Of a stretch of DNA of 64,000 nucleotides, positions 4,932 to 42,990 are shown piece by piece; position 1 is the stretch's first letter, and every line of letters begins with the position of its first letter. The DNA lies in contig JBNJGT010000001.1 of assembly GCA_051819765.1 (NCBI GenBank), forward strand, positions 42,716-106,715, read 5' to 3'. The notes beneath the pieces were generated by a model. It saw only the letters and a list, made by a program, of their open reading frames with translations, was not told the origin of the DNA and made no database searches. The translations under genes were made by a program, and so were the position numbers. Source of the stretch: Nanobdellota archaeon (GTDB lineage: Archaea; Nanobdellota; Nanobdellia; Woesearchaeales; JACJVW01).

Positions 4932-5230
4932 TTTCATTCTAATTTTTCTTTCTTAAGATCGTAGGAGTCGATTGGCGCGTAGGTCATAGAGATGAGTGAT
5001 GCCACAAACATCAGTGTGAATACGATCATGAATGCGAACCCCCATGAAGGATAGCTTGCAAATACGTTGAATGATATAATAAGCCCGATAATACTTGTTA
5101 TCATGAAGGAACCGTTTAGTGGGGCAATTCCCATCTGCATCACCTCTTTTTTTGTTATATGTGGCCCATGTTTAAAAACTTTTTGAGTGAGAACTTTTAT
5201 AAATGAGGACCTTTTCCTCATCATAGTCGC

Positions 5231-5353
5231 GGGGGTGCCGGAGTGGCCAAACGGGATGGACTCAAGGGTATTGAGTGAAGAGCTCCCTGGAGCTATGACT
5301 GAGCAATCCATTGGCTTAGTGCCTACGAGGGTTCAAATCCCTTCCCCCGCATT
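5231..5353 (+). tRNA. tRNA-Leu(CAA) with a canonical-position intron of about 38 nt
   Basis: Acceptor GCGGGGG/CCCCCGC with discriminator A. D-arm CCG-GAGTGGCCAAA-CGG. Anticodon stem ATGGA/TCCAT with loop CTCAAG(G) interrupted by an insert after position 37. Long variable arm TGGCTTAGTGCC. T-arm GAGGG-TTCAAAT-CCCTT. CCA is not encoded. Confidence 0.8.
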
Positions 5354-14070: not shown

Positions 14071-14339
14071 ATCGGTATCTGAAGGAGTTTATAAGTTTTT
14101 ATGTCTTTTGGAGTCTTTCGAAAAAGTAACTTGCATCATTGTTGCGAAGGTATCCTTATAGAAGGTGAAAGGTGTTGTGCATAACGTTCGGAGCGCGACA
14201 TCACTCCAGAATCCCTTGCAGGGGGTCACTTTAAAAAAGAAACCGAAGTCGATCTTAACGGAATCATTCGAGAACTCTGCTTTTGGCCAAAACCTTTATA
14301 TATGACACTGTCTGGTTTTTTATAAAAGAGGTGTCGATT

Positions 14340-16751
14340 ATGCAGAAGGAAAGTAAGTTCATTCTATGGTTTAATGAAATAGGTATTTCTGATGTTCATC
14401 TGGTAGGTGGGAAAAACGCCTCATTGGGAGAGATGCATCGTACATTGACAAAAAAGGGTGTTGCTGTACCCAATGGGTTTGCAATCACTGCGTATGCCTA
14501 TCGGTATTTCGTCGAGAGTGCGGGTCTGACCCAAAAGATTCGCAAAATCCTTAAGGGCCTTGATACCGGTAACATGAAGAACCTGAGCAGTAAGGGCCAT
14601 CAGGTCAGGGAGCTTATCCGTAACACGCCGTTTCCAAAAGAGCTTGAGCACGAAATCCTGCAGGCCTATGACAAGATGTGTGGCCAGTACCGGGAGAAGG
14701 ACACTGATGTTGCTGTCCGAAGCAGTGCCACTGCTGAAGACCTGCCTGATGCAAGCTTTGCCGGACAACAGGAGACATATCTGAATATCAAGGGAAAGCA
14801 TACGCTGCTTGAATCCTGTAAGAAGTGCTTTGCTTCCCTTTTCACCAACCGGGCAATCTCGTATCGGAATGACAAGCAGTTTGACCACTTCAACGTGTAT
14901 CTGTCCATCGCTGTACAGAAGATGGTAAGAAGCGATCTGGCGTGTTCAGGGGTCATGTTCTCTATTGATACTGAAAGCGGGTTCGAAAACTCTGTCTTTA
15001 TAACCGGTGCATATGGACTGGGTGAGAACGTGGTCCAGGGTGCAGTCAATCCGGATGAGTACTATGTGTTCAAGCCTACGCTCAGGCAGGGACATAATGC
15101 GATAATCTCAAAGAATGTGGGCCGGAAAAAGATCAAGATGGTCTATAGTCATGGCGGCAATACCTATACAAAGAATGTGAATGTGCCTGAAGAAGACCGA
15201 AAGGCGTTCGTATTGACTGATAAGGAAGTCCTCAAACTTGCTCGGTGGGCTGTGGAGATCGAGGAGCATTATTCCAAGAAGCGTGGTAAGTTCACACCGA
15301 TGGACATGGAGTGGGCAAAGGATGGCAAGAGCGGGAAGCTCTTTGTTGTGCAGGCACGCCCTGAAACTGTCCAGAGCCAGGTTGACCGGACAAAATACGA
15401 AGAGTATGTGATGAAAGGTACGGGAAAGGTCATCAGTAAAGGGAAAAGCGTCGGCAATCGCATCGGTTCGGGTGTGACAAATGTCATCAAGGATGTCAAA
15501 GACATCGGTAAGTTCAAGAAAGGGGAAGTGCTTGTTACAGACATGACCGATCCTGATTGGGAACCGATCATGAAGATTGCAAGCGCGATTGTCACCAATC
15601 GTGGCGGGCGGACTTGTCATGCGGCAATCATCTCCCGGGAACTGGGTATCCCTTGTGTTGTGGGGACGCTTGATGCGACGGAGAAGGTCAGAAACAAGCA
15701 GAAGGTCACAGTCTCCTGTGCAGAAGGGAATGATGGCTATGTGTATGATGGTATCCTCAAGTATGAGGTCAATACTGTGGACCTGAAGAAGATGCCGCAT
15801 ACGAAGACAAAGATCATGATGAATGTTGGAAGCCCTGAACAGGCATTCAACCTGAGCTTTGTTCCCAACAGTGGTGTTGGTCTTGCGCGTGAGGAGTTCA
15901 TCATCAATTCCTATGTCAAGATTCATCCTAACGCGTTGATCGACTACAACAAGTTGACTGACAAGAAACTCAAAAAACGCATTGATGAGTTGACGTACGG
16001 GTATAAGGACAAGAAGGAGTTTTATGTAGAGAAGCTTGCTTTTGGTATCGGAAGCATCGCTGCCGGGTTCTATCCCCATGATGTCATTGTGCGCTTGTCT
16101 GATTTCAAGACCAACGAGTATGCGAATCTGATTGGTGGCAAGCACTATGAGCCGGTGGAGGATAACCCCATGATAGGATGGCGTGGCGCATCCCGATACT
16201 ATAACCCTAACTTCAGGAAAGCCTTCGGCCTTGAATGCCAGGCACTCAAACGAGTGCGGGATGAGATGGGTCTTACCAATGTGAAGGTCATGGTTCCGTT
16301 CTGCCGGACTGTGGACGAGGGAAAGAAGGTCATAAAGGAGATGGAGAAGCATGGTCTCAAGCAGGGAAAGAATAAGCTTGAGGTTTATGTGATGTGTGAG
16401 ATTCCAGCGAATGTCATCCTGGTTGATGAGTTCTCCAAGATCTTTGATGGCTTCTCAATCGGAACCAATGATCTGACGCAGCTTGTGCTGGGCCTTGATC
16501 GGGATTCAGAGATTGTTGCTGATATCTATGATGAACGAAACGAGGCAGTGAAGAACTTCGTGAGCCAGGTTATTGCGGGGGCTAAGCGGAACAAGCGAAA
16601 GATCGGTATCTGCGGGCAGGCACCAAGCGATTACCCTGAATTTGCTGAGTTTCTGGTAAAGTGTGGTATAGATTCTATCTCACTGAATCCGGATACGGTT
16701 GTCCCGACCACTTTGCGCATCGCTGCGATGGAAAAGAAAGTCCGAAAATGA
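14340..16751 (+). CDS. ppsA: Phosphoenolpyruvate synthase (pyruvate, water dikinase)
   Basis: ATG at 14340 preceded by AAAGAGGTG. ATP-grasp N-domain, phosphohistidine region GGRTCHAAIISRELGIPCVVG, and C-terminal PEP-utilising domain. About 803 aa. Confidence 0.95.
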   Translation: MQKESKFILWFNEIGISDVHLVGGKNASLGEMHRTLTKKGVAVPNGFAITAYAYRYFVESAGLTQKIRKILKGLDTGNMKNLSSKGHQVRELIRNTPFPKELEHEILQAYDKMCGQYREKDTDVAVRSSATAEDLPDASFAGQQETYLNIKGKHTLLESCKKCFASLFTNRAISYRNDKQFDHFNVYLSIAVQKMVRSDLACSGVMFSIDTESGFENSVFITGAYGLGENVVQGAVNPDEYYVFKPTLRQGHNAIISKNVGRKKIKMVYSHGGNTYTKNVNVPEEDRKAFVLTDKEVLKLARWAVEIEEHYSKKRGKFTPMDMEWAKDGKSGKLFVVQARPETVQSQVDRTKYEEYVMKGTGKVISKGKSVGNRIGSGVTNVIKDVKDIGKFKKGEVLVTDMTDPDWEPIMKIASAIVTNRGGRTCHAAIISRELGIPCVVGTLDATEKVRNKQKVTVSCAEGNDGYVYDGILKYEVNTVDLKKMPHTKTKIMMNVGSPEQAFNLSFVPNSGVGLAREEFIINSYVKIHPNALIDYNKLTDKKLKKRIDELTYGYKDKKEFYVEKLAFGIGSIAAGFYPHDVIVRLSDFKTNEYANLIGGKHYEPVEDNPMIGWRGASRYYNPNFRKAFGLECQALKRVRDEMGLTNVKVMVPFCRTVDEGKKVIKEMEKHGLKQGKNKLEVYVMCEIPANVILVDEFSKIFDGFSIGTNDLTQLVLGLDRDSEIVADIYDERNEAVKNFVSQVIAGAKRNKRKIGICGQAPSDYPEFAEFLVKCGIDSISLNPDTVVPTTLRIAAMEKKVRK

Positions 16752-16785
16752 TTTTTTAGTTCTTTTATCTCTTTTTCTTGAATGT
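16752..16785 (+). terminator. Oligo-T tracts immediately after the ppsA stop (archaeal-type terminator signal)
   Basis: tgattttttagttcttttatctctttttcttg. Confidence 0.4.
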
Positions 16786-17498
16786 TCTTTGGGTACGTAT
16801 CCTGAGTTAGATAGGGATCGGATTGCAGATGAGATATTGTTTGATCTTGACGATCAATTCAGGCTTGGCGTATCACTGGAATTTATATCAATTACGCGAT
16901 GCAAATTGGGATTCTCTCGGTGATGAATATGAAGCACTGTATTCCAAAAATTTCACCTTAGTGGACGCTTGTGGTGATCCTATGTACTGGAAGCAAAGCA
17001 TTACCCAGGGTTTTAATCCGTCTCATGGCCCCATCTTTCTTCAGGAACCTTAGATAAAACGATAGTCTTGGTTGAAGACGGGTATGAGCATAATGCAACG
17101 TTTTTTGTTTCTGTGTCCATTGGATATAAGAGCATTTCTCACTCTCGAAAAATGTAAGGAACGCTATGGAAGTCTTATTATTGGCTGCTACGGATCAATG
17201 CGAGGTCCGTATATGTGATAGCATACAGAATGAGTCTTTTCGGATGCATCTATGATGTTATCAAAAAGAAGCCTGGACGATTCGCAGCAGATGATTGTGA
17301 ATCCATCCGTGATGAGCGTATTCACAAGCATTATATTGGTTAATCTTGCAAAAATTACCTCACGTGATTTCTATAACAGCATTTCCGGATCTTTCCCGGT
17401 GGCTTCCCAGTCGAAAGTTGGGCATCTCTCCTGGGCTACTATTGATGCGGTCCATTGATGGAAACTCTTTTATACCAGTAGACCTGTTGAATGCAAAT

Positions 17499-18701
17499 AT
17501 GAAAGGGCAGATTGCTGTTTTTTTGATTCTTGGTCTGATAATTATCGCCTCTTTCATACTCGTTTATGCCTTAAATAAAACAAGCATGTTAGAGGAAAAC
17601 GTGCATGCCATCCGGACCACCCCTGAGATGAATGTTATGCAGATACGTGCAAATATCTCCAGCTGTCTCCAGCAGCAATTCGATACTGTCCTTGAAACCG
17701 CTCTGCATCAAGGTGGTGTCTATTATACAGATGTGGATTCAAAGGAGTATGCTGTGCAGTCACAAGGGGATCATGTGGTCCCATTCTTCTATCAGTATGG
17801 GAGGCGGGATATCCCTACCACACAGCAGATCATCAATAATCTCTCTGCTGCTCTTGTGATTGAGAGCAGGCACTGTTCTAATGTCTCTGATGTTGCTGTA
17901 TTTCCTTCAGTCGGTGAGCGTGTGAGTGCACGAATCAATTTCCCGGTTCAGGTCTCAACAGAAAATAAGATTGTCACTCTCGAGGATTTTCATGTGCAGT
18001 CGCATCTTAACGTATCCAACTTCATCAATATCAGCCACCAAGTGGACCAATTCCAAAAAAGAGGATTTTGCGTCAGTTGTCTCAATGAGCTCCCAGAGGT
18101 GAGTTACAGGGAATGGGTCTATGAGGACCGGGTGGATCGGCTTTATAGCGTCAATGATACGTTCTATTTTGCGCATCGTATCAATCGCTCCCTTGGTGTT
18201 GCCCAGAGTGCGGTGTTGTTGGAAGATGTCCCTGATCAGTATGCAACCGCCAATTATCCTTTTGTGTATAATCTGACATTAAGCGGTCGGGGGGTTGAGA
18301 TGCGGGACAATACAGACTTGTTTGAAGTCGAAGAAGGTAAGATCAATTTTACTCCCGGTCTCGAGGATGTGGGGAGACACCTTATCGCCATCACTGCGGA
18401 GAACTCTCAAGGTTCCAAGACTGTATTTTTCAATCTTACAGTCGATACTCTGGTATGCGTGCCAACTATCCACTATATCGGAGGACATAGTGTTGGTGTG
18501 GGTGAGCCATTCATCTATAATGTCACGGCAACATGTGATGAACCTGTCTTCTTTTTTGATGATACTGAGTTATTCAATATCTCAGATGATGGAATGATCA
18601 ATTTCACACCAGAGGTCAAAGGGGAGTATGTGTTTAACATATCTGTCTTAAGTAATAGCGGTGGTACTGATAGCCAGGATATGCAGTTGAGGGTAGAATG
18701 A
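17499..18701 (+). CDS. Type-II membrane-anchored extracellular protein with cadherin-like/Ig-like repeats and many N-glycosylation sequons
   Basis: Start MKGQIAVFLILGLIIIASFILVYAL (signal anchor). Two C-terminal repeats: DLFEVEEGKINFTPGLEDVGRHLIAITAENSQG and ELFNISDDGMINFTPEVKGEYVFNISVLSNSGG. Stop overlaps the next gene. Confidence 0.5.
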   Translation: MKGQIAVFLILGLIIIASFILVYALNKTSMLEENVHAIRTTPEMNVMQIRANISSCLQQQFDTVLETALHQGGVYYTDVDSKEYAVQSQGDHVVPFFYQYGRRDIPTTQQIINNLSAALVIESRHCSNVSDVAVFPSVGERVSARINFPVQVSTENKIVTLEDFHVQSHLNVSNFINISHQVDQFQKRGFCVSCLNELPEVSYREWVYEDRVDRLYSVNDTFYFAHRINRSLGVAQSAVLLEDVPDQYATANYPFVYNLTLSGRGVEMRDNTDLFEVEEGKINFTPGLEDVGRHLIAITAENSQGSKTVFFNLTVDTLVCVPTIHYIGGHSVGVGEPFIYNVTATCDEPVFFFDDTELFNISDDGMINFTPEVKGEYVFNISVLSNSGGTDSQDMQLRVE

Positions 18702-20992
18702 GAGGCTTCATATTATTGTTAGGCATTTTAAGTGTGATCTTCAGTATCGGGATTGCTGAGGAGCAAGGGTTTGATACAGATGACCCTGCTACATATGCGC
18801 AAAATCCTGAAGAGGTCATTGAAAATTTTGATACGATTGTTGATTCGAAGCCTGATATGCTTATCCAAAAGATGGATGAGAATCCTGGACTGCGCAGCAG
18901 GATTCTTGAGGATAAAGAGACCCGTGATACTCTTTTCTTGAAGGACAATTCGCTTCTCAATAGGGACGGGTATAGGACCGCTGCAAAAGACATGTTCAAT
19001 GATAAGTTTACCGGGTGCACCTTTACTGAAATTGATGGAGATATCGAATCCTTCTCTGAGGATCCTTTGGAGATAACGACTGCTAAAGGCTCATTGGCTT
19101 TGGGAGACCTTCAGGGTGGGGACTATGATGTCAGTATCGAGGAAGATGGTAGGATTAACCTCAATGGCCGTTCCTTTGAGGGTCAGATAACCGGTAATGG
19201 TGATACTCTTGCGGTCGATGGGAGCTATATGGTGGATGGGGAGTCATATAGCATTGCCGGGGACATCCGTGATGTTGGGGAGGGTCGCCTAGAAGGGACC
19301 TTCACGGAATTCAATGGGATTTCGGGTGAAGATCTGGATCTTACTTATCAGGATGGGATTGTTACACTTGGTGGTGGGAGAGTGGATTCTATCGATGAAC
19401 CTGTACGCATCGCAGGGCGCTTTACGTGCGCCAAGGAAGATATCGGGAGTTTTATGTCTGACGGGGCACAGATCACGGTCCTGGACAATGGAGATTTCGA
19501 TCGGCGGTATACTCTGCCAAAGGATACCACTGTCAATCTTCTCATGGATACTCCGGTGGACGAGGACTATCCTGAAGATGCCATCTCTTTATATGCTGAC
19601 GGCTATGCGGCAGATTACGAGAGTGGCGGGGCAACGGGTGACCTTTATGATATGGATCTTCCTCCACGGGGATATCTTGATGTAGGTGATTCCGGGGTGG
19701 AACAGTTGCAGCGGCAGATAAATGCTGAGTTGCGAGATCAACCGGGGTTTGAACCGATCAGCGTTGATGGGATATATGGCCCTGAGACCAAAAATGCTGT
19801 AAGAGAACTACAAAGGAAATATGGGTTGACTCAAGACGGATTATTCGGTTCCAATACTAAGGATGCTCTTATGCAAACCACGAATATGTTTGAAGTGCAA
19901 CGCTATGACCCTAATCTTGGTTCTCGTGGATTTCTATCACCTGGTAATAGAGGTGTTGAGGATGTTCAGCGGATTCTTAATGAGGAATTAATGATGCATG
20001 AGGATTTCGAGCCACTGCAGGTGGATGGAGTCTATGGTCCGAAGACTGAGGCCGCTGTCAAGATGTTGCAGAGGCAGTATGGTCTCACTGTGGATGGCAA
20101 ATTCGGAAGCCAAACTACGCAGGTACTTTCTGAGGCTTATCAGTTGACCGGTGAGGGGGGGTTTCGGGTGGTAGAGACTGAGTCTACCATGGAGTATTCT
20201 GAGGGAGCGTATCAGAATGGGGATCCTCTGCAAACCACTACCTACTTTAAGGGGGATTTTAATTACGGACGCTTTATCGCAGGTAATGATGGTGGGTATC
20301 AACCCATAATATATACGCAAGATGGCAAGGTCATGAATGAACCTGGGTACAGTTATGTATTAGATGATTTTGAGTATTTTGATGGCAATACTTACCAGGA
20401 ACTGGGTGATGTTGTTTCCCGCACTGACGGTTCAGAGGTCAATGGTCCCCCTCATGTCCAGAGTGGGGTTGATACTGAAGGCACTTCTGGCCTTACAACC
20501 AGAACAGTAGGATTGAATCCCCAGGAGATGGATCCTGAGATGAAGCAGTATGTGATGGAGAAGGCGCAGGGTGCAGGATTGGATCCAAAACGATTATTGC
20601 AGCAGATGAAACTTGAATCTCAGTTCGATCCATATGCTTTAAGTCCTGATAATTGCGTGGGTTATGGGCAGATCTCTGAAATTGCAGTTGATGATATAAA
20701 TGCTAACTATGGAACGTCATATGGGTATGATGATAGATGGCACCCCAAAAAAAATGTGGATATGGCTGTGGCTTACCTAGGCCTTCTGGATAGACGTGTA
20801 CGAAACAAGTACCCTAATGGAAAAACAACTCCTGATGGGAGGCATTATACACCTTTGGAAATTCGTGATCTGTATTATGTTGCAGGATCAGGGAACACTG
20901 ATAAATTTTTGAATGGCGAAAAATCAGGTGTCGGTGATGTCTCTGAAAGCTATTCTGAGAATGTTGAAAGGCAGCCGGTGTCTCTTCCCTAA
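18698..20992 (+). CDS. Secreted peptidoglycan-binding protein with a C-terminal lytic transglycosylase (SLT/lysozyme-like) domain
   Basis: Signal peptide MRGFILLLGILSVIFSIGIA. Two PG_binding_1-type repeats: ...VDGIYGPETKNAVRELQRKYGLTQDGLFGSNTKDAL and ...VDGVYGPKTEAAVKMLQRQYGLTVDGKFGSQTTQVL. SLT core MKLESQFDPYALSPDNCVGYGQISE...NVDMAVAYLGLL. Confidence 0.75.
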   Translation: MRGFILLLGILSVIFSIGIAEEQGFDTDDPATYAQNPEEVIENFDTIVDSKPDMLIQKMDENPGLRSRILEDKETRDTLFLKDNSLLNRDGYRTAAKDMFNDKFTGCTFTEIDGDIESFSEDPLEITTAKGSLALGDLQGGDYDVSIEEDGRINLNGRSFEGQITGNGDTLAVDGSYMVDGESYSIAGDIRDVGEGRLEGTFTEFNGISGEDLDLTYQDGIVTLGGGRVDSIDEPVRIAGRFTCAKEDIGSFMSDGAQITVLDNGDFDRRYTLPKDTTVNLLMDTPVDEDYPEDAISLYADGYAADYESGGATGDLYDMDLPPRGYLDVGDSGVEQLQRQINAELRDQPGFEPISVDGIYGPETKNAVRELQRKYGLTQDGLFGSNTKDALMQTTNMFEVQRYDPNLGSRGFLSPGNRGVEDVQRILNEELMMHEDFEPLQVDGVYGPKTEAAVKMLQRQYGLTVDGKFGSQTTQVLSEAYQLTGEGGFRVVETESTMEYSEGAYQNGDPLQTTTYFKGDFNYGRFIAGNDGGYQPIIYTQDGKVMNEPGYSYVLDDFEYFDGNTYQELGDVVSRTDGSEVNGPPHVQSGVDTEGTSGLTTRTVGLNPQEMDPEMKQYVMEKAQGAGLDPKRLLQQMKLESQFDPYALSPDNCVGYGQISEIAVDDINANYGTSYGYDDRWHPKKNVDMAVAYLGLLDRRVRNKYPNGKTTPDGRHYTPLEIRDLYYVAGSGNTDKFLNGEKSGVGDVSESYSENVERQPVSLP

Positions 20993-21023
20993 TAGGATAA
21001 TCCTTATAAAGTTGGGGTGATTT

Positions 21024-21773: not shown

Positions 21774-22822
21774 ATCGTGTTGGAATCGAAGACCCGAAGA
21801 ATCGGTCAGGGACCTATCTATATGAGGATGATTCTGCGAGGCTTTCCGAATCACGGGATGACAATATCGAGATCATGGATATCCGTGAGGCCCTCAAGAA
21901 GTATGACTGGCTCGCCAATTACATGTGGAAAGCCCTTGACCCTGAAAAGGATGAATACACAAAGATGGCGCGTAACCACTACCGTGGTGGGTATTTCATC
22001 TGGGTTAAGAAGGGGGCCCATATCTCCCTTCCTATCCAATCCTGTATGTTCATAAAGGAAGATCATTTCACCCAGGTAGTCCATAACATCGTGATCGTGG
22101 ATGAGGGTGCATCAGTTGATATCATGACAGGATGCCTAACTCATCCGAATGTGCATACGGCTGAGCATGTGGGTATGTCTGAATTCTATGTGAAGAAGAA
22201 CGGGCGCCTGAATTTCACGATGATCCATGACTGGAATGACAAGTCATTTGTCAGGCCACGAAGCGCGACCATCGTCGAGGAGGGAGGCTCATTCATCAAT
22301 AATTATGTGCTTCTTGAGCCAGTGAAGGATATTCAGGCTGCGCCAATCACGTATCTGAAAGGTGCTAACAGCAGGGCAACTCTCACGAGCCTGTTGCAGG
22401 GGGTTGGAACATCCAGTATCGATATGGGTGGGACTGTTGTGCTCCAGGGAAAGGGTTCACAGGGTGATATCATCTCCCGGGCGATCGCAAAAGATTCTTC
22501 AACTATCTATGCCCGGGGCATCATCCAGGGTGAACATGAGGAATCACGGGCGCATCTGGAATGCAATGGTCTGTTGCTTTCGCCGCACGCGAAGATCCAT
22601 GCCATCCCTGAGCTTGTTGCTACGACAGAGGGTGCGGATCTGTCCCATGAAGCAGCAGTCGGGAAGATCGCTGAGGAGGAGATAATCTATCTCATGTCCC
22701 GGGGAATGACAAAGGAAGAGGCTGAGGCCATGATCATCCGTGGCTTTCTGGATGTCAATATGCTGTCCCTGCCTGATGCCTTCAGGGAACGAGTCAAGGA
22801 TCTCATCAATCAGCTTAACTGA
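21761..22822 (+). CDS. Fe-S cluster assembly protein of the SufB/SufD family
   Basis: 353 aa immediately overlapping sufC. C-terminal beta-helix region (..GANSRATLTSLLQG..IISRAIAKDSSTIYARGIIQGEHEESRAHLECNGLLLS..). Confidence 0.7.
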   Translation: MEELNRVGIEDPKNRSGTYLYEDDSARLSESRDDNIEIMDIREALKKYDWLANYMWKALDPEKDEYTKMARNHYRGGYFIWVKKGAHISLPIQSCMFIKEDHFTQVVHNIVIVDEGASVDIMTGCLTHPNVHTAEHVGMSEFYVKKNGRLNFTMIHDWNDKSFVRPRSATIVEEGGSFINNYVLLEPVKDIQAAPITYLKGANSRATLTSLLQGVGTSSIDMGGTVVLQGKGSQGDIISRAIAKDSSTIYARGIIQGEHEESRAHLECNGLLLSPHAKIHAIPELVATTEGADLSHEAAVGKIAEEEIIYLMSRGMTKEEAEAMIIRGFLDVNMLSLPDAFRERVKDLINQLN

Positions 22823-25800
22823 ATTCTCTCCGGTTGTAATAGTTTGCAGCAATCACGATACCGATGAGAATCAGGATAAGGGTCGCAAGGATTATGCCAA
22901 TGATTGTAAGCGGTACCTTGTTCCTGTTCAGGTACCCTCTCCATTCGCTCATCTCCTGGGGCTGCTCTATCTGCTGCTCTTTACCGCTGATAAGATACCG
23001 ACAGGTGTCGATGGTCTTTTGCAAGAGTTCCTTTGACTGCTCGGTCTTGCCCTGTTCAATCAGGTCTCGTGCACGGGCTATCTGCTCGTTGAGTTCCAGG
23101 CATTCAGGGTTTGAGGTAAGCAGGTCACGGACAAACTTCACTTCATTCTCCAGACTCTCCCCTTCAAGAGGCGTGATTGATACAAATGCATAGTCCATGA
23201 GTTCAGGGTTCAGGGAATGGGCACTGATATTGATATTGACTGCCTCTGCGTTTTGCCAGGATGCTTCTACCTGGGTCTCCAGGGTTTCCTGGGGGCTGAG
23301 TGTTGCAATGACCTTGTCCTGAAAATTGAATGTGACGTCTTCATTGCTCTGGGCATCAAGGGTGATCTGGTTGAGGGTGATATTCCCTTGGTTCTTCAGT
23401 GTAAGGGGAATTATTACTGAATCGTTATCTGTCTGTATAAGGGGTTGCGGGGTGATGAGCTGGAGGAACTCTGGCTGTGTGACGTTTTCTGTCTCAGGGA
23501 ACGGGACAATGACCCGTCTTATGTCTCCACCTCCTCCTCCTGAGCTTTCGGGAGGTGGCTGGTCATAGGTGTCGAGGACTGTTATGGTTATGTTGTTTGA
23601 TTGGATGCTTGCGTTTTTTGGATCTTGTGCCTCTACCCTGAAACGCGCGATGCCGTACCAGTCTGTTGCCGGAGAAAGGCTGAGCTGGTTTTGCTGGTTG
23701 ATTGATATGCCTAGATTGTCGCTGTTTTGTATGTCTATTATGGAGAAATTGAGGGTGTCTTTGTCCTTGTCTGAGAAATAGTGGTCAAGGTCAATCCAGG
23801 GAGAGATGTCGTATTCCTCTTTCATTATGAAATCCGGGATTCGCATATTGAGGAGAGGTTCGTTGACTGTCGCATTGCTTATGGTGAGTGCGTACTGGAT
23901 GTAACGGTTTTCCCAATGGTACGTCATATTCTGGGTGCGGTTTTCGTCATGGAACAGGCTTTGGTTTGATAGTGGGTCGGACCATGATGACCAGGCATTC
24001 GCGTTGTATGATGTGCGTGCCTGGAGTGTTGCAGCGCTGACCTTGTGGAGCCTTAGTTCGTTCACTTGTATCTGACCTGTGAAATCCAGTTTCATTCGAT
24101 CCATAGGGGTTGGAGGGATGGTAAGGGTCTGGTTGCCGTTGCAGTCTGATGAAAGGAGATGATTGGAAGTGCCATTGAAGGTGTATGTGATGTTGATGGT
24201 TGTAGGTTGTCTTGTTGAGAGTGAAATGTTCCGGATGAAGGTTGGGGTATTGAATGCGATCGAGAGGGTTGCGGGTGAGTCAGCCTCCCAGTAGGTAAGG
24301 TAATTGTCATCATATGTTCTTGAGATGTTGTGGAATGAACTTGTTGTATGTGATGCGGTGCGTTCTCCTATGATCTCAGAGGTGTGGTTCCCTCTGACAC
24401 GGTACTTGATGTTTCGAAAATCCGGCTTTAAAAGATGGGTTGTGTCGTCCAGGGTGTCCTTTGGCTCTGAGATGAATCTTCCTTGCCCCCTGAATGAGTC
24501 GGTATAGGAGGTATTGTAGAAGGTACCATCAATGCCGAGGGGGACCTCTCCGAAAGAGGGTGGGCGGTTTACATCAATGACGGTGATATTCCATAGTACG
24601 TGGTTTGCTGTGACATTGTCAGATACGGTCAGATTGAGGGTGTGTGTGCCTGAGCTGGAATGATTAAAGTATATGGTGAGGTTCTTTGTTGTATGGGAAT
24701 GGTTATCATATATCCAGGTGGTGAGGATGGTGTCATTCTCATTGTCTGAGCTGTTGTGCATGAAGGTTATTGTCGTGTCCTCGGCGGTTGTAAGATTTAT
24801 CCGGGTCTTGTTTGTCCAATTCCCATGATAGACCTCATGGATGATTGGGGGGGTGTTGTTTTCTACCTCTATTGTTATCAGGTTTGAGCTTGTTGTCGCA
24901 ATGGAGTCGTTTGCGACGAATGCGACGGACAGGTTTCCCACGAAGTCGGTTGCAGGAGCGGCTGTGACACGTGATCCATTGAACCAGAGGGTCATGTCTG
25001 TGGTTGGGCTGTGGGTGAAGTTCATTGACTGGTTGCATGCGTCAATCTGGTAGAAATAATCTGTGAGGTCAAGTATCTCTTTGACCTGGTTCTTTTTTAT
25101 TGTGATATTGGGTATGGGCCTGTCAAGTATTGGTGGTATATTATTATTCTGGACTGTGAGGTTCCATGTGAGGCCTGTGGAGAGATTGCCGTCGGAAACG
25201 TTGACGCTTATGTTATACTGGCCTGCTGCGCAGAAATCGGGAGTGAATGACCAGTTCTGCGTTGTTGCTATAGGTTGGTTGTTGATTGTCCAATTGTAGA
25301 AAAGCAGGTCACTATCTGGGTCATGGATCGTAATGTTGAAGTCCTGTGTGGTGTTCTCCTGAATCGTGTGGTTCAGGGGAGGGATGAAGCTTGTTATCTC
25401 AGGCGGCTTACTTACGTTTATTATATGGTACAATGCTTGCTTGTAGGTGGTGTTGATGCCATCGGTCACGCTAAAGTTGAGGGTCAGGTTTCCCGGCTGT
25501 TTGGGTGTGAAGTTGAATGTTCCTATGGTGGTGGCGCCGATCGGCTCTGTTTGTATGGATGAGGAAATGTTGAAAAGCAAAGGTGATACATTGAGTGCGA
25601 GAAGATCTGCGTCCTCGTCATAGGCTTTGATTGTTATCTCATAGGTATGGTCTTCTCGTAATGAATTGCCGCCGGTCTTGTTCTCCAGCAGTGTAAAATA
25701 CGGGATATCGTTCGTGTCGGTGATGTTTATCACAAGCGTTGATGAGTTGATGCCTCCGTAGGGGTCTGAGACGGTGATGTTGAATGGGTGTACACCTACC

Positions 25801-30598: not shown

Positions 30599-31192
30599 AT
30601 GGAAGTATACCTGCTCATGTTGCTTGCTATCAGCTTTTTGTTGATGTTGCTGGTGGGGGTGGGATACATCTTATATCGTTTGGAGAAACCAGTGCTTTCT
30701 CAGTTGTATGTTCCATTATTCTCATTTTTGGGTGGGCCGCTTCGCCGCATCTTTGGGCAGACATTGTACAATAAGATATTTGTTCTCTTTGGGAATCAAT
30801 ACTCACGAAAAAAGTTCAAGGCCACTCCATTCTCTAATCGGGCGGTCTTTTTGCCCCAGTGCCTGCGTCATACCGATTGTCCGGCCCGACTTGGGACTGA
30901 AGGGATCCAATGCGTCAAGTGCGGGCGCTGCGGCATCGGATCTTATGTTAAAAAGGCTGAGAACTATGTGTATGTGTTTGTTGTGCCTGGAAGTTCATTC
31001 ATCAAGCGTATGGTACGAAAATATAATCCCCATGCTATTCTTGGGGTCGGGTGTCTTATGGAGGTGCGGGAAGGATTAGAGTTGATGGCATCACTCAAGA
31101 TACCTGGTCAGGGGGTTGTGCTTGCTGATGATGGGTGTGTGGGGACCCATGTGGCATGGGATGATGTGCTTGATGCAACCTTTCGGTCCTAG
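30599..31192 (+). CDS. Membrane protein with a Cys cluster, DUF116-like
   Basis: N-terminal TM helices then LPQCLRHTDCPARLGTEGIQCVKCGRCGI...VVPGSSFIKRMV...AILGVGCLMEVREG...GVVLADDGCVGTH. Confidence 0.45.
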   Translation: MEVYLLMLLAISFLLMLLVGVGYILYRLEKPVLSQLYVPLFSFLGGPLRRIFGQTLYNKIFVLFGNQYSRKKFKATPFSNRAVFLPQCLRHTDCPARLGTEGIQCVKCGRCGIGSYVKKAENYVYVFVVPGSSFIKRMVRKYNPHAILGVGCLMEVREGLELMASLKIPGQGVVLADDGCVGTHVAWDDVLDATFRS

Positions 31193-32571
31193 TTCTTCTT
31201 GGCGCGCAGATATATTATTTGACCGGGTTGGAGCTCTTCTCCAACGTATTCTTTAGAGTCTGGGGCATTCACCAAGTTCATGTACGTCTTTTCTTTGAAG
31301 AGACGAGGGGTCATGTCCTTGTAGAAATCGCCACTACTGTTGTCGTCCCTGTCAAATTTCCTGATGATCTCTGCGGGATGGTCCCCACTGTTTACTATGT
31401 AGCGGAATATTGTGTGTGTTCCATCCTGTACCTTTTCAAAGCCGCCAAATTGCGAGGAGGGTATAGTCCCGCTGGGGATGTATGGATTTGGTCTCGTGGT
31501 AATGCCTGAGAGTGCTGCCAGATTCTCGCTGGTCTTGTGGATATAGGGGAGTAGTCTCTCTGAGCATGAGACACGCAGGTCATGCTGTGCATCATTTTCA
31601 GCCCAGTATTGAAATGCCTTATGTGCATCCTTTGGGTGGTGGTTTGCGACAGCAATGTAGCGTGCCAGGTCACCAATGTGGTTTTCCCAATTGTCTGAGA
31701 GGGTTTGCAGGTGCTGGTCATCAACCTTACGCAGGGCGTCTGCGATATTGTTGATTGCAAGCAGGTATGCTACGCGGTGATGTTCTTCACCAGTCACTTC
31801 CTCCAGGGAGGTGGGGGGTTTCAGGTGCTCTGGAAGGGCTTTTCCGATGATGGATGCGCCGGTGGCATCGTATTTGCCGCTTTCTCCGACCACTGGTGGG
31901 GTGAGTTGGTAGGGGCCAAAGGAGAAGTGATTGTCACCTTGGGAGGCTATGTTGTAGATAAATTCAGGCCCTGCTTTTTCTACCAGGAATTCAAACACTG
32001 CTAGATTCTTTTCGCCGTGGGAGGAAGGCATGGTTTCAGTGCAGGCATAGCTTGTCATGTGATCTGCGGTGATTACTCCTGCCATCCCTTTCAAGATGTC
32101 AAGGCGGGTATCATCGAGGGGGATTGCTTTGCGTACATCATCCACTTTCTTGAAGCCGATGGGTTTGCGACGTCTCACTTTTTCCCAATCAATGTGTTGG
32201 TATGTATTATCAATAATCTGGTCGATCGAGTCAAGATATTCCTGGAATGAAACCTTTTCTGTTGTGGTATGGTCATATTGGAGCACTTCGTTCTGGTAGA
32301 AGTTCTTGATAGTGTCAGAATCATTGGCCTTCATCTTTTCGTGCCAGGTTGATCGGATTTGCGCGGTAAAATCAATGGTGGCTTTTTCCGGGACGAGGCC
32401 TTCGATGCCCGTGTAGTCAGTGAAAAGATTTGCAAAGCGTGAGCCTGCCAGTTCTCCCATCTCCACGACGGTGGGTTTTGGTGTATCTGGGATTTGGGAT
32501 TTTCCAGCTGCCGCTGAGCCGCAGAGAGCCAGGATGAGTGTGGAGGCGATGGCGGATTTGAATCTTTTCAT
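31189..32571 (-). CDS. Secreted protein of unknown function with a possible C-terminal LysM-like module
   Basis: Signal peptide MKRFKSAIASTLILALCGSAAAG. The C-terminus ...YIVNSGDHPAEIIRKF...LVNAPDSKEYVGEELQPGQIIYL loosely fits the LysM pattern. Confidence 0.45.
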   Translation of the reverse strand: MKRFKSAIASTLILALCGSAAAGKSQIPDTPKPTVVEMGELAGSRFANLFTDYTGIEGLVPEKATIDFTAQIRSTWHEKMKANDSDTIKNFYQNEVLQYDHTTTEKVSFQEYLDSIDQIIDNTYQHIDWEKVRRRKPIGFKKVDDVRKAIPLDDTRLDILKGMAGVITADHMTSYACTETMPSSHGEKNLAVFEFLVEKAGPEFIYNIASQGDNHFSFGPYQLTPPVVGESGKYDATGASIIGKALPEHLKPPTSLEEVTGEEHHRVAYLLAINNIADALRKVDDQHLQTLSDNWENHIGDLARYIAVANHHPKDAHKAFQYWAENDAQHDLRVSCSERLLPYIHKTSENLAALSGITTRPNPYIPSGTIPSSQFGGFEKVQDGTHTIFRYIVNSGDHPAEIIRKFDRDDNSSGDFYKDMTPRLFKEKTYMNLVNAPDSKEYVGEELQPGQIIYLRAKKN

Positions 32572-36563: not shown

Positions 36564-36990
36564 TACGCATAGCAATGAAACTCGTTTTCGTCGGGTCCTT
36601 GAGCTTCTTGCGGAGTGTGACTTGATCATACATTGCGGAGACTGGACTTCCTCTTCCATGGTTGAGTTGTGCCGGGGTCTTCCCGTCCACGGGGTGCGGG
36701 GCAACTGCGACTTTGAGGTTGATGGGCCAATCAAGTTTCATGAGCCCTATCTTGCTATGACACTTGATGGTATCCGGGTCGGGGCATGCCATGGGCATGA
36801 CCTGTGGCTTTCAGAACTCTTATCGGGTGGCTTTGATGTGGTCCTTTCTGGGCATACCCATCGGTCGAAGATAGAGTGGGTGCAAGATACCTTACATATC
36901 AATCCTGGCTCTCCTGCAAAGCCGCGAAATGGAGCAAGCTGTGCATTATGTGATACAGAAAAAAGGGAAGGAAAAATACTTCTTTTATGA
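36541..36990 (+). CDS. Metallophosphoesterase, MJ0936/YfcE family
   Basis: GIVSDTHSN, HCGDW, GVRGNCD, ACHGHD and LSGHTHR metal-ligand motifs. Confidence 0.8.
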   Translation: MLLGIVSDTHSNETRFRRVLELLAECDLIIHCGDWTSSSMVELCRGLPVHGVRGNCDFEVDGPIKFHEPYLAMTLDGIRVGACHGHDLWLSELLSGGFDVVLSGHTHRSKIEWVQDTLHINPGSPAKPRNGASCALCDTEKREGKILLL

Positions 36991-37920: not shown

Positions 37921-37972
37921 TATCGTAACCTCCAGGTCTCTCAATGGAATAATCCTTATATAAACTTTTTGA

Positions 37973-42679: not shown

Positions 42680-42990
42680 AAATGTGGTAAGGTAGCAGTA
42701 AGCCGCCTTCTGTCAGGCCCAAACATCTTCTTGGGGATGCGATGGCCTGTCTTAGCATTTAACTGAGCGCATACTGCTTGCACAAGCCAAGGGTGGCTTT
42801 TCACCTGTTCCTCATACGATGTCAACGGGTTAACTCCCAGGCCGTTGCCGGCTGGTTCACCGCATCATCCCTATATGAGGGAGTGTTTTTTCTGAGCCAT
42901 TGCCATCCTTCTCAGGATCTCCTCAGAGTGGCATTTCCTGTGGGCGGACTTTCCTCACGGGTGCGATAGCTAAGTTGCTACCTTACCTTG
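42680..42990 (-). ncRNA. rnpB: RNase P RNA (archaeal type-A-like), about 310 nt
   Basis: Minus strand contains CR-I GAGGAAAGUCCGCCCACAG and CR-V ACAGAAGGCGGCUUA, with covarying P4 pairing (GCC/GGC in place of the E. coli GGG/CCC). P1 is formed by 5' GGUAAGGUAGCA (42976..42987 region) and 3' UGCUACCUUACC (42686..42698). It includes the J11/12-like CAGGUGAAAAGCCACC. Confidence 0.8.

What the first reader, a model, noticed from the sequence alone, without database searches (positions are those of the whole stretch)
17499..20992. Archaeal operon encoding a cadherin-like membrane protein and a secreted peptidoglycan-binding lytic transglycosylase
The locus is otherwise unmistakably archaeal (RadA, PCNA, thermosome, aIF5B). 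Yet 18698..20992 encodes a signal-peptide protein with two PG_binding_1-type repeats (…DG(I/V)YGP(E/K)T..AV..LQR.YGLT.DG.FG…) and a C-terminal SLT-like catalytic core (ESQFDPYALSPDNCVGYGQI…AVAYL). It is translationally coupled (4-nt overlap) to an upstream type-II membrane protein with cadherin-like repeats. Archaea lack murein, so a murein-binding muralytic enzyme implies a role against bacteria: predation, episymbiosis, competition, or acquisition from phage/bacteria. Pseudomurein remodelling is the alternative. A second exported protein with a LysM-like C-terminus lies at 31189..32571.
Basis: partly seen in the sequence, partly recalled or inferred. Interest (0 to 1): 0.7.

Follow-up and report, generated by a model that had tools for sequence, protein, structure and literature searches.

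The report
DPANN archaeal murein-cutting enzyme cassette
A tiny symbiotic-type archaeon (Woesearchaeota) carries a two-gene insert that encodes a surface-anchored adhesin-like protein and an exported enzyme built to bind and cut bacterial cell-wall peptidoglycan.

Summary
The core observation holds. Gene 18698..20992 encodes a 764-aa exported protein with two PG_binding_1 repeats (Pfam E 3.6e-27). Its C-terminal family-1 lytic transglycosylase (SLT/GH23) domain scores 33.3 bits against a cut-off of 21.3, has AlphaFold pLDDT 96-98, and matches MltE, MltC and Slt by fold. Catalytic Glu640 aligns with the MltC residue mutated to Gln in 4cfo.

The gene overlaps by ATGA an upstream 400-aa N-terminally anchored, sequon-rich protein. 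That protein's two 85-aa repeats resemble the Big_9/cadherin-like repeats of the neighbouring 1660-aa surface protein.

The host is a Woesearchaeote (DPANN), not a pseudomurein producer. The nearest available genome (about 78-80% nucleotide identity, perfectly syntenic) lacks exactly 16769..20991. The pair is therefore a 4.2-kb indel between the ppsA terminator and the sufC promoter. It has the lowest GC3 in the window.

The SLT domain has no close relative among 1.84 billion representative proteins, so no donor can be named.

Murein transglycosylases in Woesearchaeota and Pacearchaeota, and bactericidal archaeal PG hydrolases, are already published. This is a new, very divergent member of a known kind with an unusual PG_binding_1+SLT architecture. 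The LysM claim for 31189..32571 is unsupported.

The parts
16769..20991 (.). 4,223-nt segment with no counterpart in the nearest syntenic Woesearchaeota genome (L001, JAWOGQ010000011.1). It lies between the ppsA terminator region and the sufC promoter.
   Evidence: blastn: L001 1-5670 matches window 26670-20992 and L001 5676-8165 matches window 16768-14281, leaving 5 nt in L001 against 4,223 nt here. tblastn synteny. Junction alignment. No flanking repeats, tRNA or integrase.
16769..17467 (+). Non-coding left part of the insert (GC 0.41) with only broken ORF fragments in several frames. It may be a decayed gene or a long upstream region.
   Evidence: Three-frame translations. No Pfam hit for the concatenated fragments. 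No Rfam family. GC value.
17468..17474 (+). TATA-like box TTTTATA centred about 28 nt upstream of the ATG at 17499. This suggests a leaderless-type archaeal promoter for the pair.
   Evidence: Read from the sequence. The conserved sufC promoter element AATCCTTATAAAGTT lies a similar distance (about 27 nt) upstream of the ATG at 21036. Inference only; there are no transcript data.
17499..18701 (+). Gene 1: a 400-aa N-terminally anchored, sequon-rich surface protein. It is an orphan with one distant homologue.
   Evidence: ORF. NCBI MGM5487367.1, hypothetical. Only one homologue, P0123, at 28% identity over 39% of the query. 15 N-X-S/T sequons against 3.5 expected.
17499..17591 (+). N-terminal anchor MKGQIAVFLILGLIIIASFILVYAL. 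It is either a type-II signal anchor or a class III (type IV pilin-like) signal peptide (KG|Q).
   Evidence: Hydropathy segment 1-31. AlphaFold helix 2-38 at pLDDT 74-82 over roughly the first 20 residues. Regex match to [KRDE][GA][ALIFQMVED][ILMVTAS]x3, seen in only 2 of 44 window proteins.
18234..18698 (+). Two Ig-like (Big_9/cadherin-like type) repeats with an 85-aa period (…LF.v..G.INFTP…G…i.v.…).
   Evidence: DNA repeat D3 with 255-nt spacing. Sub-threshold Big_9 and Y_Y_Y hits. In-register alignment with repeats of the 1660-aa Big_9/Cadherin_5 protein, E 1e-6. Beta strands at residues 330-400 with pLDDT 64-83. Alignment with P0123.
18689..18693 (+). Shine-Dalgarno-like GAGGG, 5-9 nt upstream of the second gene's ATG.
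   Evidence: Read from the sequence. Inference.
18698..18701 (+). ATGA overlap of the stop codon of gene 1 and the start codon of gene 2 (translational coupling).
18698..20992 (+). Gene 2: a 764-aa exported modular peptidoglycan lytic transglycosylase. It is very acidic (138 D+E against 64 K+R) and has no N-glycosylation sequons.
18698..18757 (+). N-terminal export signal MRGFILLLGILSVIFSIGIA|EE. It fits a Sec/SPase I site (G-I-A) and also fits the class III motif (RG|F).
   Evidence: Inspection only; no signal-peptide predictor was available.
18758..19687 (+). N-terminal region of about 310 aa with no detectable homologue. The model shows helices at about 31-103 and a beta-rich part at 145-206.
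   Evidence: No Pfam, PDB or homologue coverage. AlphaFold low to moderate confidence.
19688..19879 (+). PG_binding_1 repeat 1 (residues 331-394; …VDGIYGPETKNAVRELQRKYGLTQDGLFG…).
   Evidence: Pfam. PDB relatives include the SleB PG-binding domain 6tci and 1lbu. Repeat-to-repeat alignment.
19946..20143 (+). PG_binding_1 repeat 2 (residues 417-482; …VDGVYGPKTEAAVKMLQRQYGLTVDGKFG…).
   Evidence: (pLDDT 78-90)
20144..20500 (+). Gly- and aromatic-rich linker region (residues 483-601) with no detectable homologue.
   Evidence: pLDDT below 50
20501..20989 (+). Family-1 lytic transglycosylase (SLT/GH23) catalytic domain, residues 602-764.
   Evidence: Pfam SLT 33.3 bits. MltC phmmer E 3e-7 to 6e-7. 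NCBIfam MltC model, E 2.8e-8. pLDDT 96-98. Foldseek matches to MltE, MltC and Slt at probability 1.0.
20615..20617 (+). Codon of the predicted catalytic Glu640 (motif MKLESQFDPYALS). Other family-1 LT motif regions: GYGQ at 655, AVAYL at 690, YYVAGSG at 726 and SESYSENV at 749.
   Evidence: Alignment to MltC wild type and to 4cfo, which has Q at this column. Residue positions.
20998..21012 (+). Conserved sufC promoter element AATCCTTATAAAGTT at the right edge of the insert, starting 6 nt after the SLT stop codon.
   Evidence: Shared with L001.

Best explanation
This is a two-gene surface module in a Woesearchaeal (DPANN) archaeon, present as a 4.2-kb lineage-specific indel.

Proposed components:
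- Gene 1 makes an N-terminally anchored, heavily N-glycosylated protein with two Ig-like repeats of the organism's own surface-protein type. I read it as an adhesin or spacer.
- Gene 2 is translationally coupled to gene 1. It makes an exported enzyme that docks on bacterial murein through two PG_binding_1 repeats. Its family-1 lytic transglycosylase domain (general acid Glu640) would cleave the MurNAc-beta-1,4-GlcNAc bond and produce 1,6-anhydro-MurNAc ends.

The archaeon has no murein of its own, so the target would be the wall of neighbouring bacteria. Possible purposes are locally opening the sacculus of a bacterial host or prey, killing competitors, or releasing muropeptides.

Shown here: gene structure, domain identity, fold, conserved catalytic Glu, archaeal host lineage, and the indel relative to the sister genome.

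Inferred: export, co-transcription, enzymatic activity, substrate and ecological role.
For: - Domains and fold: PG_binding_1 x2 at E 3.6e-27 and SLT above its gathering score. The Glu of the ES motif aligns with the MltC residue that is Gln in 4cfo. The SLT domain has pLDDT 96-98. Its top structural matches are MltE, MltC, Slt, MltF and MltD. The PG-binding repeats match solved murein-binding domains of SleB and 1lbu.
- Export and coupling: hydrophobic N-termini and the ATGA overlap with an SD-like GAGGG.
- Host identity: archaeal markers. The nearest RadA relatives are all Woesearchaeota/Nanoarchaeia.
- Indel: L001 is syntenic gene for gene but lacks 16769-20991. The SLT gene has the lowest GC3 of 44 genes, 0.427 against 0.561 +/- 0.059.
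- Native partner: gene 1 repeats resemble those of the adjacent native giant surface protein. Gene 1 is sequon-rich like other surface proteins of the window.
- Lineage context: other Woesearchaeota loci fetched here also encode anchored SLT or NlpC/P60 proteins.
- Literature: murein transglycosylases have been reported in Woesearchaeota and Pacearchaeota and interpreted the same way (PMC8204110, PMC9723730, PMC10936187). Archaeal modular PG hydrolases with two PG_binding_1 repeats have been shown to kill bacteria (PMC12352652).
Against: - There is no functional, expression or localisation evidence.
- The protein is a singleton. It has no orthologue in 15 billion proteins, so purifying selection cannot be measured.
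- The SLT score is modest (33 bits). Motif II is GYGQ rather than GLMQ. The Asn of the AYNxG-type motif is Val by the HMMER alignment.
- About 55% of the protein (N-terminal 310 aa plus linker) is of unknown function and is poorly modelled.
- The polarity of the indel (gain here or loss in L001) is not resolved with two genomes.
- The signal-peptide type is ambiguous.
- No bacterial partner is known for any cultivated DPANN archaeon, as far as my literature search shows.
Confidence: 0.6

Rival explanations
1. The enzyme acts on a substrate other than murein. Candidates are chitin or chito-oligosaccharides, pseudomurein of a methanogen partner, or glycans of another archaeon's envelope. The PG_binding_1 repeats would then serve as general glycan or protein-binding modules.
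For: GH23/SLT-fold enzymes bind chito-oligosaccharides in crystals, for example MltE with chitopentaose (4hjy) and the phi6 lysin with chitotetraose (4dqj), both among the hits. All cultivated DPANN have archaeal hosts (my own knowledge). Strock et al. note that binding domains can recognise other polymers. The catalytic motifs are divergent.
Against: Both module types are murein-specific in every characterised relative found. Pseudomurein has beta-1,3 linkages to N-acetyltalosaminuronic acid, and its known lysins are endoisopeptidases with different binding repeats (established knowledge). No such domain was detected. Strock et al. found only 2 of 210 archaeal PGH homologues in pseudomurein producers.
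Confidence: 0.12
2. The gene is a functionless or decaying relic of a horizontal transfer. It is intact by chance and is not used by the archaeon.
For: It is a singleton with no orthologues. Its GC3 and codon usage are atypical. Next to it lies 700 nt of broken ORFs. It is absent from the sister genome.
Against: A 2,295-nt ORF with no stop codon keeps every catalytic motif region and two well-formed binding repeats. It has a precise ATGA overlap and an SD-like site joining it to an archaeal-type partner gene. The insert has diverged beyond recognisable similarity to any donor, which implies long residence as an open frame.
Confidence: 0.12
3. The pair belongs to an integrated virus or other mobile element, for example as a virion-associated or lysis muralytic protein, rather than to the archaeon's own physiology.
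For: The PG-binding repeats hit phage endolysin families (PHROGs E 1e-25). The SLT domain hits phage internal-virion and transglycosylase families weakly. Some of the nearest SLT hits are polyvalent mobile-element proteins (P0130 with LPD39; P0166 with Amidase_2+SLT+VanY). It is an indel.
Against: The 4.2 kb contains no integrase, capsid, terminase, tRNA target or terminal repeats. There was no match in IMG/VR or in INPHARED beyond weak domain similarity. A virus of a murein-less archaeon has no use for a murein hydrolase.
Confidence: 0.06
4. The segment is an assembly or binning artefact, with a bacterial fragment spliced into an archaeal contig.
For: Bacterial-type domains, atypical GC3, and a MAG as the source.
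Against: The segment is internal to a 109-kb contig. Both flanks continue the synteny seen in an independent genome. Gene 1 of the segment carries archaeal-type repeats and sequon enrichment. It also has an archaeal-type TATA spacing. No bacterial sequence is more than 43% identical over any domain.
Confidence: 0.03

Closest known systems
E. coli membrane-bound lytic transglycosylases MltC and MltE, and Slt70/Slt (family 1 LTs, Pfam SLT PF01464, CAZy GH23)
   Same: The catalytic domain has the same fold (Foldseek probability 1.0). The ES motif with the catalytic Glu aligns. The MltC NCBIfam model is hit at E 2.8e-8.
   Different: Sequence identity is only 17-23%. The host is an archaeon with no murein of its own. 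There is no lipobox or outer-membrane anchor and no MltC or Slt accessory domains. Motif II is GYGQ, and the Asn of the AYNxG-type motif is replaced. The domain is fused to two PG_binding_1 repeats and 310 aa of unknown sequence.
Murein-like lytic transglycosylase proteins of Woesearchaeota and Pacearchaeota (Rinke 2013; Castelle 2015, AR20; Castelle 2021, fam00969; Vigneron 2022), and the 'LysM+SLT' Woesearchaeales proteins in Strock 2025, Table S2
   Same: Same host lineage, same catalytic domain family, extracellular, and the same proposed anti-bacterial or attachment role.
   Different: The binding module is PG_binding_1 x2, not LysM. No archaeal PG_binding_1+SLT entry appears in the stored part of Strock's table. 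The protein is 764 aa rather than up to 3,000 aa. The SLT domain scores 10 bits or less against the Woesearchaeal SLT proteins I could fetch, and 35-45 bits against the best database hits, so it appears to be a separate lineage. fam00969 sequences themselves were not available to me.
Woldo and Danwoldo of Halogranum salarium (PG_binding_1 x2 + Peptidase_M23 or Glucosaminidase; Strock et al. 2025)
   Same: Both are archaeal, exported, modular PG hydrolases with two tandem PG_binding_1 repeats. Both have a patchy, gain-and-loss distribution, as with the indel seen here.
   Different: The catalytic domain differs: M23 endopeptidase or glucosaminidase there, lytic transglycosylase here. The export signal there is Tat. 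Killing of a bacterium was demonstrated experimentally there and nothing was tested here.
Aciduliprofundum boonei GH25 muramidase (Metcalf et al. 2014, cited in PMC12352652)
   Same: An antibacterial muralytic gene acquired horizontally by an archaeon.
   Different: It is a GH25 hydrolase with an identifiable Bacillaceae-like donor. Here the enzyme is a GH23 lytic transglycosylase with no identifiable donor.
SleB-type and phage-endolysin PG_binding_1 modules of Bacillota
   Same: The two repeats are most similar (34-39% identity, E down to 3e-45) to proteins whose named members are all Bacillota: Allofournierella, Ruminococcus, Clostridia and Metabacillus. They also match the SleB PG-binding domain structures.
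   Different: Those proteins carry other catalytic domains or none that is recognised. The similarity stops at the repeats, which cover about 20% of the query.

Membership tests
Family 1 lytic transglycosylase (Pfam SLT PF01464 / GH23) | Profile match above the curated gathering score | tested here: met
   33.3 bits against a cut-off of 21.3, E 4e-8, residues 618-702.
Family 1 lytic transglycosylase (Pfam SLT PF01464 / GH23) | Catalytic Glu in the E-S motif at the end of the first core helix | tested here: met
   MKLE640SQFDPYALS aligns with MltC MQTESSFNPYAVS. The 4cfo chain has Q at that column.
Family 1 lytic transglycosylase (Pfam SLT PF01464 / GH23) | Goose-lysozyme-like all-alpha fold | tested here: met
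   AlphaFold pLDDT 96-98 for residues 610-764. Foldseek top hits are MltE, MltC, Slt, MltF, MltD and the phi6 lysin, at probability 1.0.
Family 1 lytic transglycosylase (Pfam SLT PF01464 / GH23) | Remaining consensus motifs (GLMQ; AYNxG; C-terminal Tyr motif) | tested here: inconclusive
   GYGQ replaces GLMQ. YYVAGSG aligns with AYNGGAG, putting Val in place of Asn. SESYSENV resembles the E…Y…V motif but was not covered by any alignment.
Family 1 lytic transglycosylase (Pfam SLT PF01464 / GH23) | Non-hydrolytic cleavage of MurNAc-GlcNAc giving 1,6-anhydro-MurNAc | not testable with these tools
   Requires an enzyme assay and muropeptide LC-MS.
PG_binding_1 (PF01471) murein-binding module | Profile match above the gathering score; tandem copies | tested here: met
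   94.7 bits against 23, with two stretches. The repeats are about 50% identical to each other. They match the SleB and 1lbu domains in the PDB.
PG_binding_1 (PF01471) murein-binding module | Binds peptidoglycan | not testable with these tools
   Requires a sacculus pull-down.
Archaeal modular peptidoglycan hydrolases (sensu Strock et al. 2025) | At least one PG-catalytic and at least one cell-wall-binding Pfam domain in one protein of an archaeal genome | tested here: met
   SLT plus PG_binding_1. Both domains are on their lists (file 11). The archaeal contig is confirmed by synteny with L001 and by marker genes.
Archaeal modular peptidoglycan hydrolases (sensu Strock et al. 2025) | Recognised secretion signal | tested here: inconclusive
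   There is a hydrophobic N-terminus with a plausible G-I-A|E SPase I site. It also matches a class III pattern. No predictor was run.
Archaeal modular peptidoglycan hydrolases (sensu Strock et al. 2025) | Bactericidal activity | not testable with these tools
   Experimental.
Woesearchaeota/Pacearchaeota large LT proteins (Castelle 2021, fam00969) and the pilin-like SLT family near RPA-RadA | Sequence membership, meaning closer to the lineage's own SLT proteins than to others | tested here: not met
   The window SLT scores 10 bits or less against L062, L035, L076, L003 and L025, and 35-45 bits against the best database hits. The N-domain HMM of that family finds nothing in the window. fam00969 sequences themselves were not available.
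Pseudomurein-directed enzymes | Host is a pseudomurein producer, or the protein carries pseudomurein-binding repeats or a Pei-type endoisopeptidase | tested here: not met
   The lineage is Woesearchaeota. No such Pfam domain was detected.
Cadherin-like / Big_9 Ig-like repeat surface proteins (upstream gene) | Profile match above the gathering score | tested here: not met
   Big_9 13.6 bits against 23.6, and Y_Y_Y 14.6 against 26.6. The resemblance is supported only by pairwise alignment to the neighbouring Big_9/Cadherin_5 protein (E 1e-6) and to P0123.
Archaeal type IV pilin-like proteins (class III signal peptide) | [KR][GA]|hydrophobic N-terminal motif, plus prepilin peptidase and pilus assembly genes | tested here: inconclusive
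   A motif recalled from the FlaFind rule matches both cassette proteins and no other of the 44 window proteins. The pattern is permissive. No pilus genes were recognised in the window. The rest of the genome was not available.
LysM (claimed for 31189..32571) | Pfam LysM match | tested here: not met
   No Pfam family at E<=1. Nothing in NCBIfam, PHROGs or the PDB.

The most novel reading that the evidence does not exclude
Both proteins of the cassette begin M-[KR]-G-[QF] followed by a hydrophobic helix, which is the pattern of archaeal type IV pilin-like (class III) signal peptides. Many Woesearchaeota carry a conserved pilin-like protein whose variable C-terminus is an SLT or NlpC/P60 domain. 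The most novel reading not excluded is that these archaea mount murein-cutting enzymes on a pilus-like or stalk-like surface fibre. Such a fibre would attach to bacterial cell walls and breach them, giving a cross-domain (archaeon-on-bacterium) episymbiosis or predation apparatus. The cassette here would be a horizontally swapped 'warhead plus adhesin' variant of it.
Probability: 0.1. Interest if true: 0.75.

Novelty: new member of a known kind. Interest (0 to 1): 0.35.

Why it matters
Archaea make no murein, so an exported murein-binding, murein-cutting enzyme is one of the few sequence-level signs that an archaeon physically engages bacteria. For DPANN archaea, whose partners are mostly unknown, such genes are candidate handles for finding hosts or prey, and they are a possible source of new antibacterial enzymes.

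This locus adds four things to the published picture:
- It uses a PG_binding_1+SLT architecture, which is absent among archaeal entries in the stored part of the 2025 survey table.
- It is a clean 4.2-kb presence/absence polymorphism between two syntenic Woesearchaeal genomes, consistent with the gain-and-loss dynamics expected of weapons.
- The enzyme is translationally coupled to a native-type glycosylated Ig-repeat surface protein.
- The SLT domain is so divergent that no donor is traceable.

None of this changes the concept, which has been in the literature since 2013-2015 and was tested experimentally for other archaeal PG hydrolases in 2025.

Tried and rejected
**Donor phylogeny.** The exhaustive HMMER search with the SLT domain gave only 48 weak hits (best E 1.4e-6, 43% identity over 68 aa). 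These have almost no taxonomic labels. Their domain contexts are mixed: small SLT proteins, EF-hand fusions, and polyvalent mobile-element proteins. A tree would be uninformative, so I did not build one.

**Searches for close relatives.** All of these returned nothing:
- Word-index search with the C-terminus.
- GTDB genomes.
- JGI metagenomes.
- IMG/VR.
- The exact-protein contig look-up.

**Phage origin.** tblastn against INPHARED and Foldseek against BFVD gave only generic SLT similarity, no better than bacterial LTs.

**Terminal repeats, tRNA or integrase at the insert borders.** None found.

**Remnant gene in 16769-17467.** No family hit.

**Homology of gene 1 to other proteins.** I tested it against the L076 upstream TM protein and the conserved Woesearchaeal pilin-like N-domain. 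Neither was significant (BLASTP E 6.7; hmmsearch --max E 0.11).

**Homology of the window enzyme to the L076 754-aa SLT protein.** Only the core motif aligns.

**Structure of gene 1.** The AlphaFold model was too poor for fold search (mean pLDDT 39.5).

**AFDB fold search.** The library was unavailable.

**LysM or SLT in the 460-aa protein at 31189..32571.** Rejected.

**Organism names for the top PG_binding hits.** The cluster look-up returned no names.

Full report
**1. What is in the sequence**

ORF listing shows two co-directional genes: 17499..18701 (400 aa from the ATG) and 18698..20992 (764 aa). The stop of the first and the start of the second share ATGA at 18698-18701. A GAGGG lies 5-9 nt upstream of the second ATG. 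Both proteins exist verbatim in NCBI as singleton clusters on a 109,576-bp contig of a 'Nanobdellota archaeon' MAG. They are annotated 'hypothetical protein' and 'peptidoglycan-binding protein'.

**2. The enzyme**

- Pfam gives PG_binding_1 twice (E 3.6e-27) and SLT PF01464 at residues 618-702 (33.3 bits against a gathering score of 21.3).
- phmmer against PDB sequences aligns the C-terminus with E. coli MltC (E 3e-7 to 6e-7). Glu640 of MKLESQFDPYALS falls on the MltC residue that is Gln in 4cfo. That this is the catalytic Glu is from my knowledge of MltC.
- The NCBIfam MltC model also hits.
- I made an AlphaFold2 model from a 62-row alignment. Residues 610-764 have pLDDT 96-98. The second PG-binding repeat has 78-90 and the first 56-72.
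- Foldseek against the PDB returns MltE, MltC, Slt, MltF, MltD and the phi6 lysin at probability 1.0.
- The two PG-binding repeats (331-394 and 417-482) are about half identical to each other. They match the solved PG-binding domains of SleB and the Streptomyces Zn D-Ala-D-Ala carboxypeptidase.
- The other family-1 LT motif regions are recognisable but altered. GYGQ replaces GLMQ, and Val sits at the Asn of the AYNxG-type motif.
- The N-terminal 310 aa and the 120-aa linker have no homologue anywhere and are poorly modelled.
- The N-terminus MRGFILLLGILSVIFSIGIA|EE is hydrophobic with a plausible SPase I site.

**3. The partner**

The upstream protein has one strongly hydrophobic N-terminal segment (AlphaFold helix 2-38). 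It has no Pfam domain above threshold and a single distant homologue. Its C-terminal 150 aa consist of two 85-aa repeats (DNA repeat D3). These align in register with several repeats of the neighbouring 1660-aa surface protein (best pairwise E 1e-6). That neighbour carries Big_9 (E 3.8e-29) and Cadherin_5.

The upstream protein has 15 N-X-S/T sequons against 3.5 expected. The other large exported proteins of the window are similarly enriched: 99 against 32.5, and 19 against 5.9. The enzyme has none against 4.1 expected (shuffle P 0.0075).

Gene 1 therefore looks like a native-type archaeal glycoprotein, and gene 2 looks like a foreign-type enzyme that avoids glycosylation sites.

**4. Whose genome**

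The window encodes RadA, RPA, PCNA, thermosome, aIF5B, CDC48 and Trm1. It also holds an archaeal RNase P RNA and an intron-containing tRNA.

A scan of GTDB species representatives with RadA returns only Woesearchaeota/Nanoarchaeia-type MAGs. Some of these are evidently mislabelled 'Methanosarcinales'. The best match, at 94%, is 'Candidatus Woesearchaeota archaeon BLK6-3.bin.78' (L001). Woesearchaeota are DPANN archaea, not pseudomurein producers.

**5. The cassette is an indel**

L001 is syntenic with the window gene for gene, by amino-acid identity: RadA 93%, RPA 87%, PpsA 93%, SufC 82%, SufBD 84% and the 1660-aa protein 79%. It has neither cassette gene.

blastn puts the break exactly. L001 1-5670 matches window 26670-20992, and L001 5676-8165 matches window 16768-14281, at 78-80% nucleotide identity. 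Window 16769-20991 (4,223 nt) is therefore replaced by 5 nt in L001.

The left border lies in the T-rich stretch after ppsA. The right border lies 6 nt before the conserved sufC promoter element AATCCTTATAAAGTT.

The insert has no terminal repeats, tRNA or integrase. Its first 700 nt are non-coding with broken ORFs. A TTTTATA box sits about 28 nt upstream of the gene 1 ATG, a spacing similar to that at sufC.

The SLT gene has the lowest GC3 of 44 genes (0.427 against 0.561 +/- 0.059), and gene 1 is also low (0.464). The insert's tetranucleotide distance is in the top 6% of windows.

Gain in this lineage is the more likely polarity. Loss in L001 is not excluded.

**6. Origin**

All non-self hits to the whole protein cover only the PG-binding repeats (34-39% identity, E down to 3e-45). 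The named hits are all Bacillota.

The SLT domain was searched exhaustively against 1.84 billion representatives. It finds only itself and 48 weak hits (best E 1.4e-6). These have mixed contexts, including polyvalent mobile-element proteins.

Phage collections give nothing closer. No donor can be named. The domain has either resided and diverged for a long time or comes from an unsampled source.

**7. Lineage context found in passing**

I built an HMM of the SLT domain and ran it on the 80 Woesearchaeal RadA loci (1.1 Mb). It found SLT-bearing ORFs in several of them. Pfam confirmed them: SLT at E 1e-29 in L062 and L035, and NlpC/P60 in L059.

These ORFs belong to a conserved family with a pilin-like N-terminus (…KKG|Q…, …KKA|M…) and a shared N-domain. 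The family is found upstream of RPA-RadA on the same strand, often directly adjacent, in 28 loci. Eight of them gave an SLT-HMM hit in the same ORF; four of these are strong, and one weak hit (L059) is Glucosaminidase/NlpC-P60 by Pfam.

The window and L001 lack this gene at that position. The window's SLT domain scores 10 bits or less against the family.

L076 also has an analogous pair. A 245-aa KRKG|Q-anchored protein overlaps by 4 nt a 754-aa Sec-type protein with a C-terminal SLT domain. It shows no significant sequence similarity to the window pair.

Both cassette proteins here match the class III signal pattern, as 2 of 44 window proteins. That is a lead, not a test.

**8. Comparison with the literature**

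- Castelle et al. 2021 describe large extracellular murein-like LT proteins as characteristic of small-genome Woesearchaeota and Pacearchaeota. They propose bacterial episymbiosis, citing Rinke 2013 and Castelle 2015.
- Vigneron et al. 2022 report GH23 LTs in five Woesearchaeal MAGs and propose 'vampiristic' predation.
- A 2024 mBio study of oxygen-deficient-zone DPANN archaea (PMC10936187) reports such enzymes in three DPANN MAGs.
- Strock et al. 2025 find modular PG hydrolases in about 5% of archaeal genomes, most prominently in Nanoarchaeota. They note a patchy distribution and show that two haloarchaeal enzymes with tandem PG_binding_1 repeats kill a bacterium.
- In their Table S2, Woesearchaeales entries are mostly LysM+SLT. 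PG_binding_1+SLT occurs only in bacterial rows of the stored part.

**9. Verdict**

The concept is already established for this lineage.

The specific contributions are a new and extremely divergent member with an architecture new for archaea, a precisely delimited 4.2-kb presence/absence polymorphism, and coupling to a native-type Ig-repeat glycoprotein. The LysM remark on 31189..32571 is unsupported.

Function, export route, substrate and bacterial partner remain to be tested.

Noticed in passing
L062:6849-8444, L035:6296-7975, L076:3101-4537, L003:6639-7757, L059:1848-4769, and 23 further RadA loci (table): A conserved Woesearchaeal gene family lies upstream of RPA-RadA on the same strand. 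It has a pilin-like N-terminus ([KR][GA] followed by a hydrophobic helix), a shared N-domain of about 200 aa, and a variable C-terminus. That C-terminus is an SLT domain in several members (Pfam E 1e-29), NlpC/P60 plus a glucosaminidase-like region in L059, or FN3-like. Some members have lost the ES Glu (L074, L011). It may correspond to the 'large murein-like LT' family of Castelle 2021. It is absent from the window and from L001.
   Followed up: partly
L076:16576-19574: A second Woesearchaeote has an analogous two-gene arrangement. A 245-aa N-terminally anchored protein (MQSKRKGQTTIF…) overlaps by 4 nt a 754-aa Sec-signal protein with a C-terminal SLT domain (Pfam E 1.8e-11). It has no significant sequence similarity to the window pair, so any relation is architectural only.
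   Followed up: partly
window 18698-20992 compared with 17499-18701, 22815-27797 and 27794-30322: The enzyme has zero N-X-S/T sequons in 764 aa (4.1 expected, shuffle P 0.0075). The other large exported proteins are 3- to 4-fold enriched (15/3.5, 99/32.5, 19/5.9). This could reflect selection to keep the enzyme unglycosylated, or its foreign origin.
   Followed up: partly
window 16769-17467: About 700 nt of low-GC (0.41) non-coding sequence at the left end of the insert carries ORF fragments in alternating frames. It may be a decayed third gene of the acquired segment. It has no family or Rfam match.
   Followed up: partly
window 22815-30322 (- strand): Two large exported proteins overlap by 4 nt. 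One is 1660 aa, with Big_9 x7, Cadherin_5, PKD, 99 sequons and a C-terminal TM anchor. The other is 842 aa, with 30 Cys, no Pfam domain and a TM segment near residue 670. The 1660-aa protein is conserved in L001 at 79% identity. Together with the cassette and the 460-aa protein, they make 17.5-32.6 kb a cell-surface-rich region.
   Followed up: partly
window 31189-32571 (- strand): A 460-aa orphan has a lipobox-like signal (LILALCGS) and no detectable domain in Pfam, NCBIfam, PHROGs or the PDB. The C-terminal 'Y.V..GD…PGQ.I.L' string looks LysM-like by eye but is not detected by any profile.
   Followed up: yes
window 36985-38893 (- strand): Two adjacent orphan proteins (333 and 306 aa) have lipoprotein-like signals (…LLLLMIAITGCTDG, …LSILFLIACSSEP) and no Pfam match. 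They are followed by several small orphans up to 42168.
   Followed up: no
window 3444-4931, 14283-16751, 44113-46533: Bacterial-type genes sit in the archaeal context: a SurA-N/PpiC-type peptidyl-prolyl isomerase, PEP synthase, and DNA gyrase subunit A. This is in line with the hybrid bacterial/archaeal protein sets reported for DPANN.
   Followed up: no
window 5229-5351 and 42687-42986: There is a tRNA spanning 123 nt that ARAGORN missed and Rfam found, presumably intron-containing. There is also an archaeal RNase P RNA (114 bits).
   Followed up: no
L002, L006, L010, L012, L013 and other loci: Many public MAG records titled 'uncultured Methanosarcinales archaeon' carry RadA (up to 94%) and RPA genes that group with Woesearchaeota, and they share the window's gene order. 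The record titles appear to be taxonomically mislabelled.
   Followed up: no
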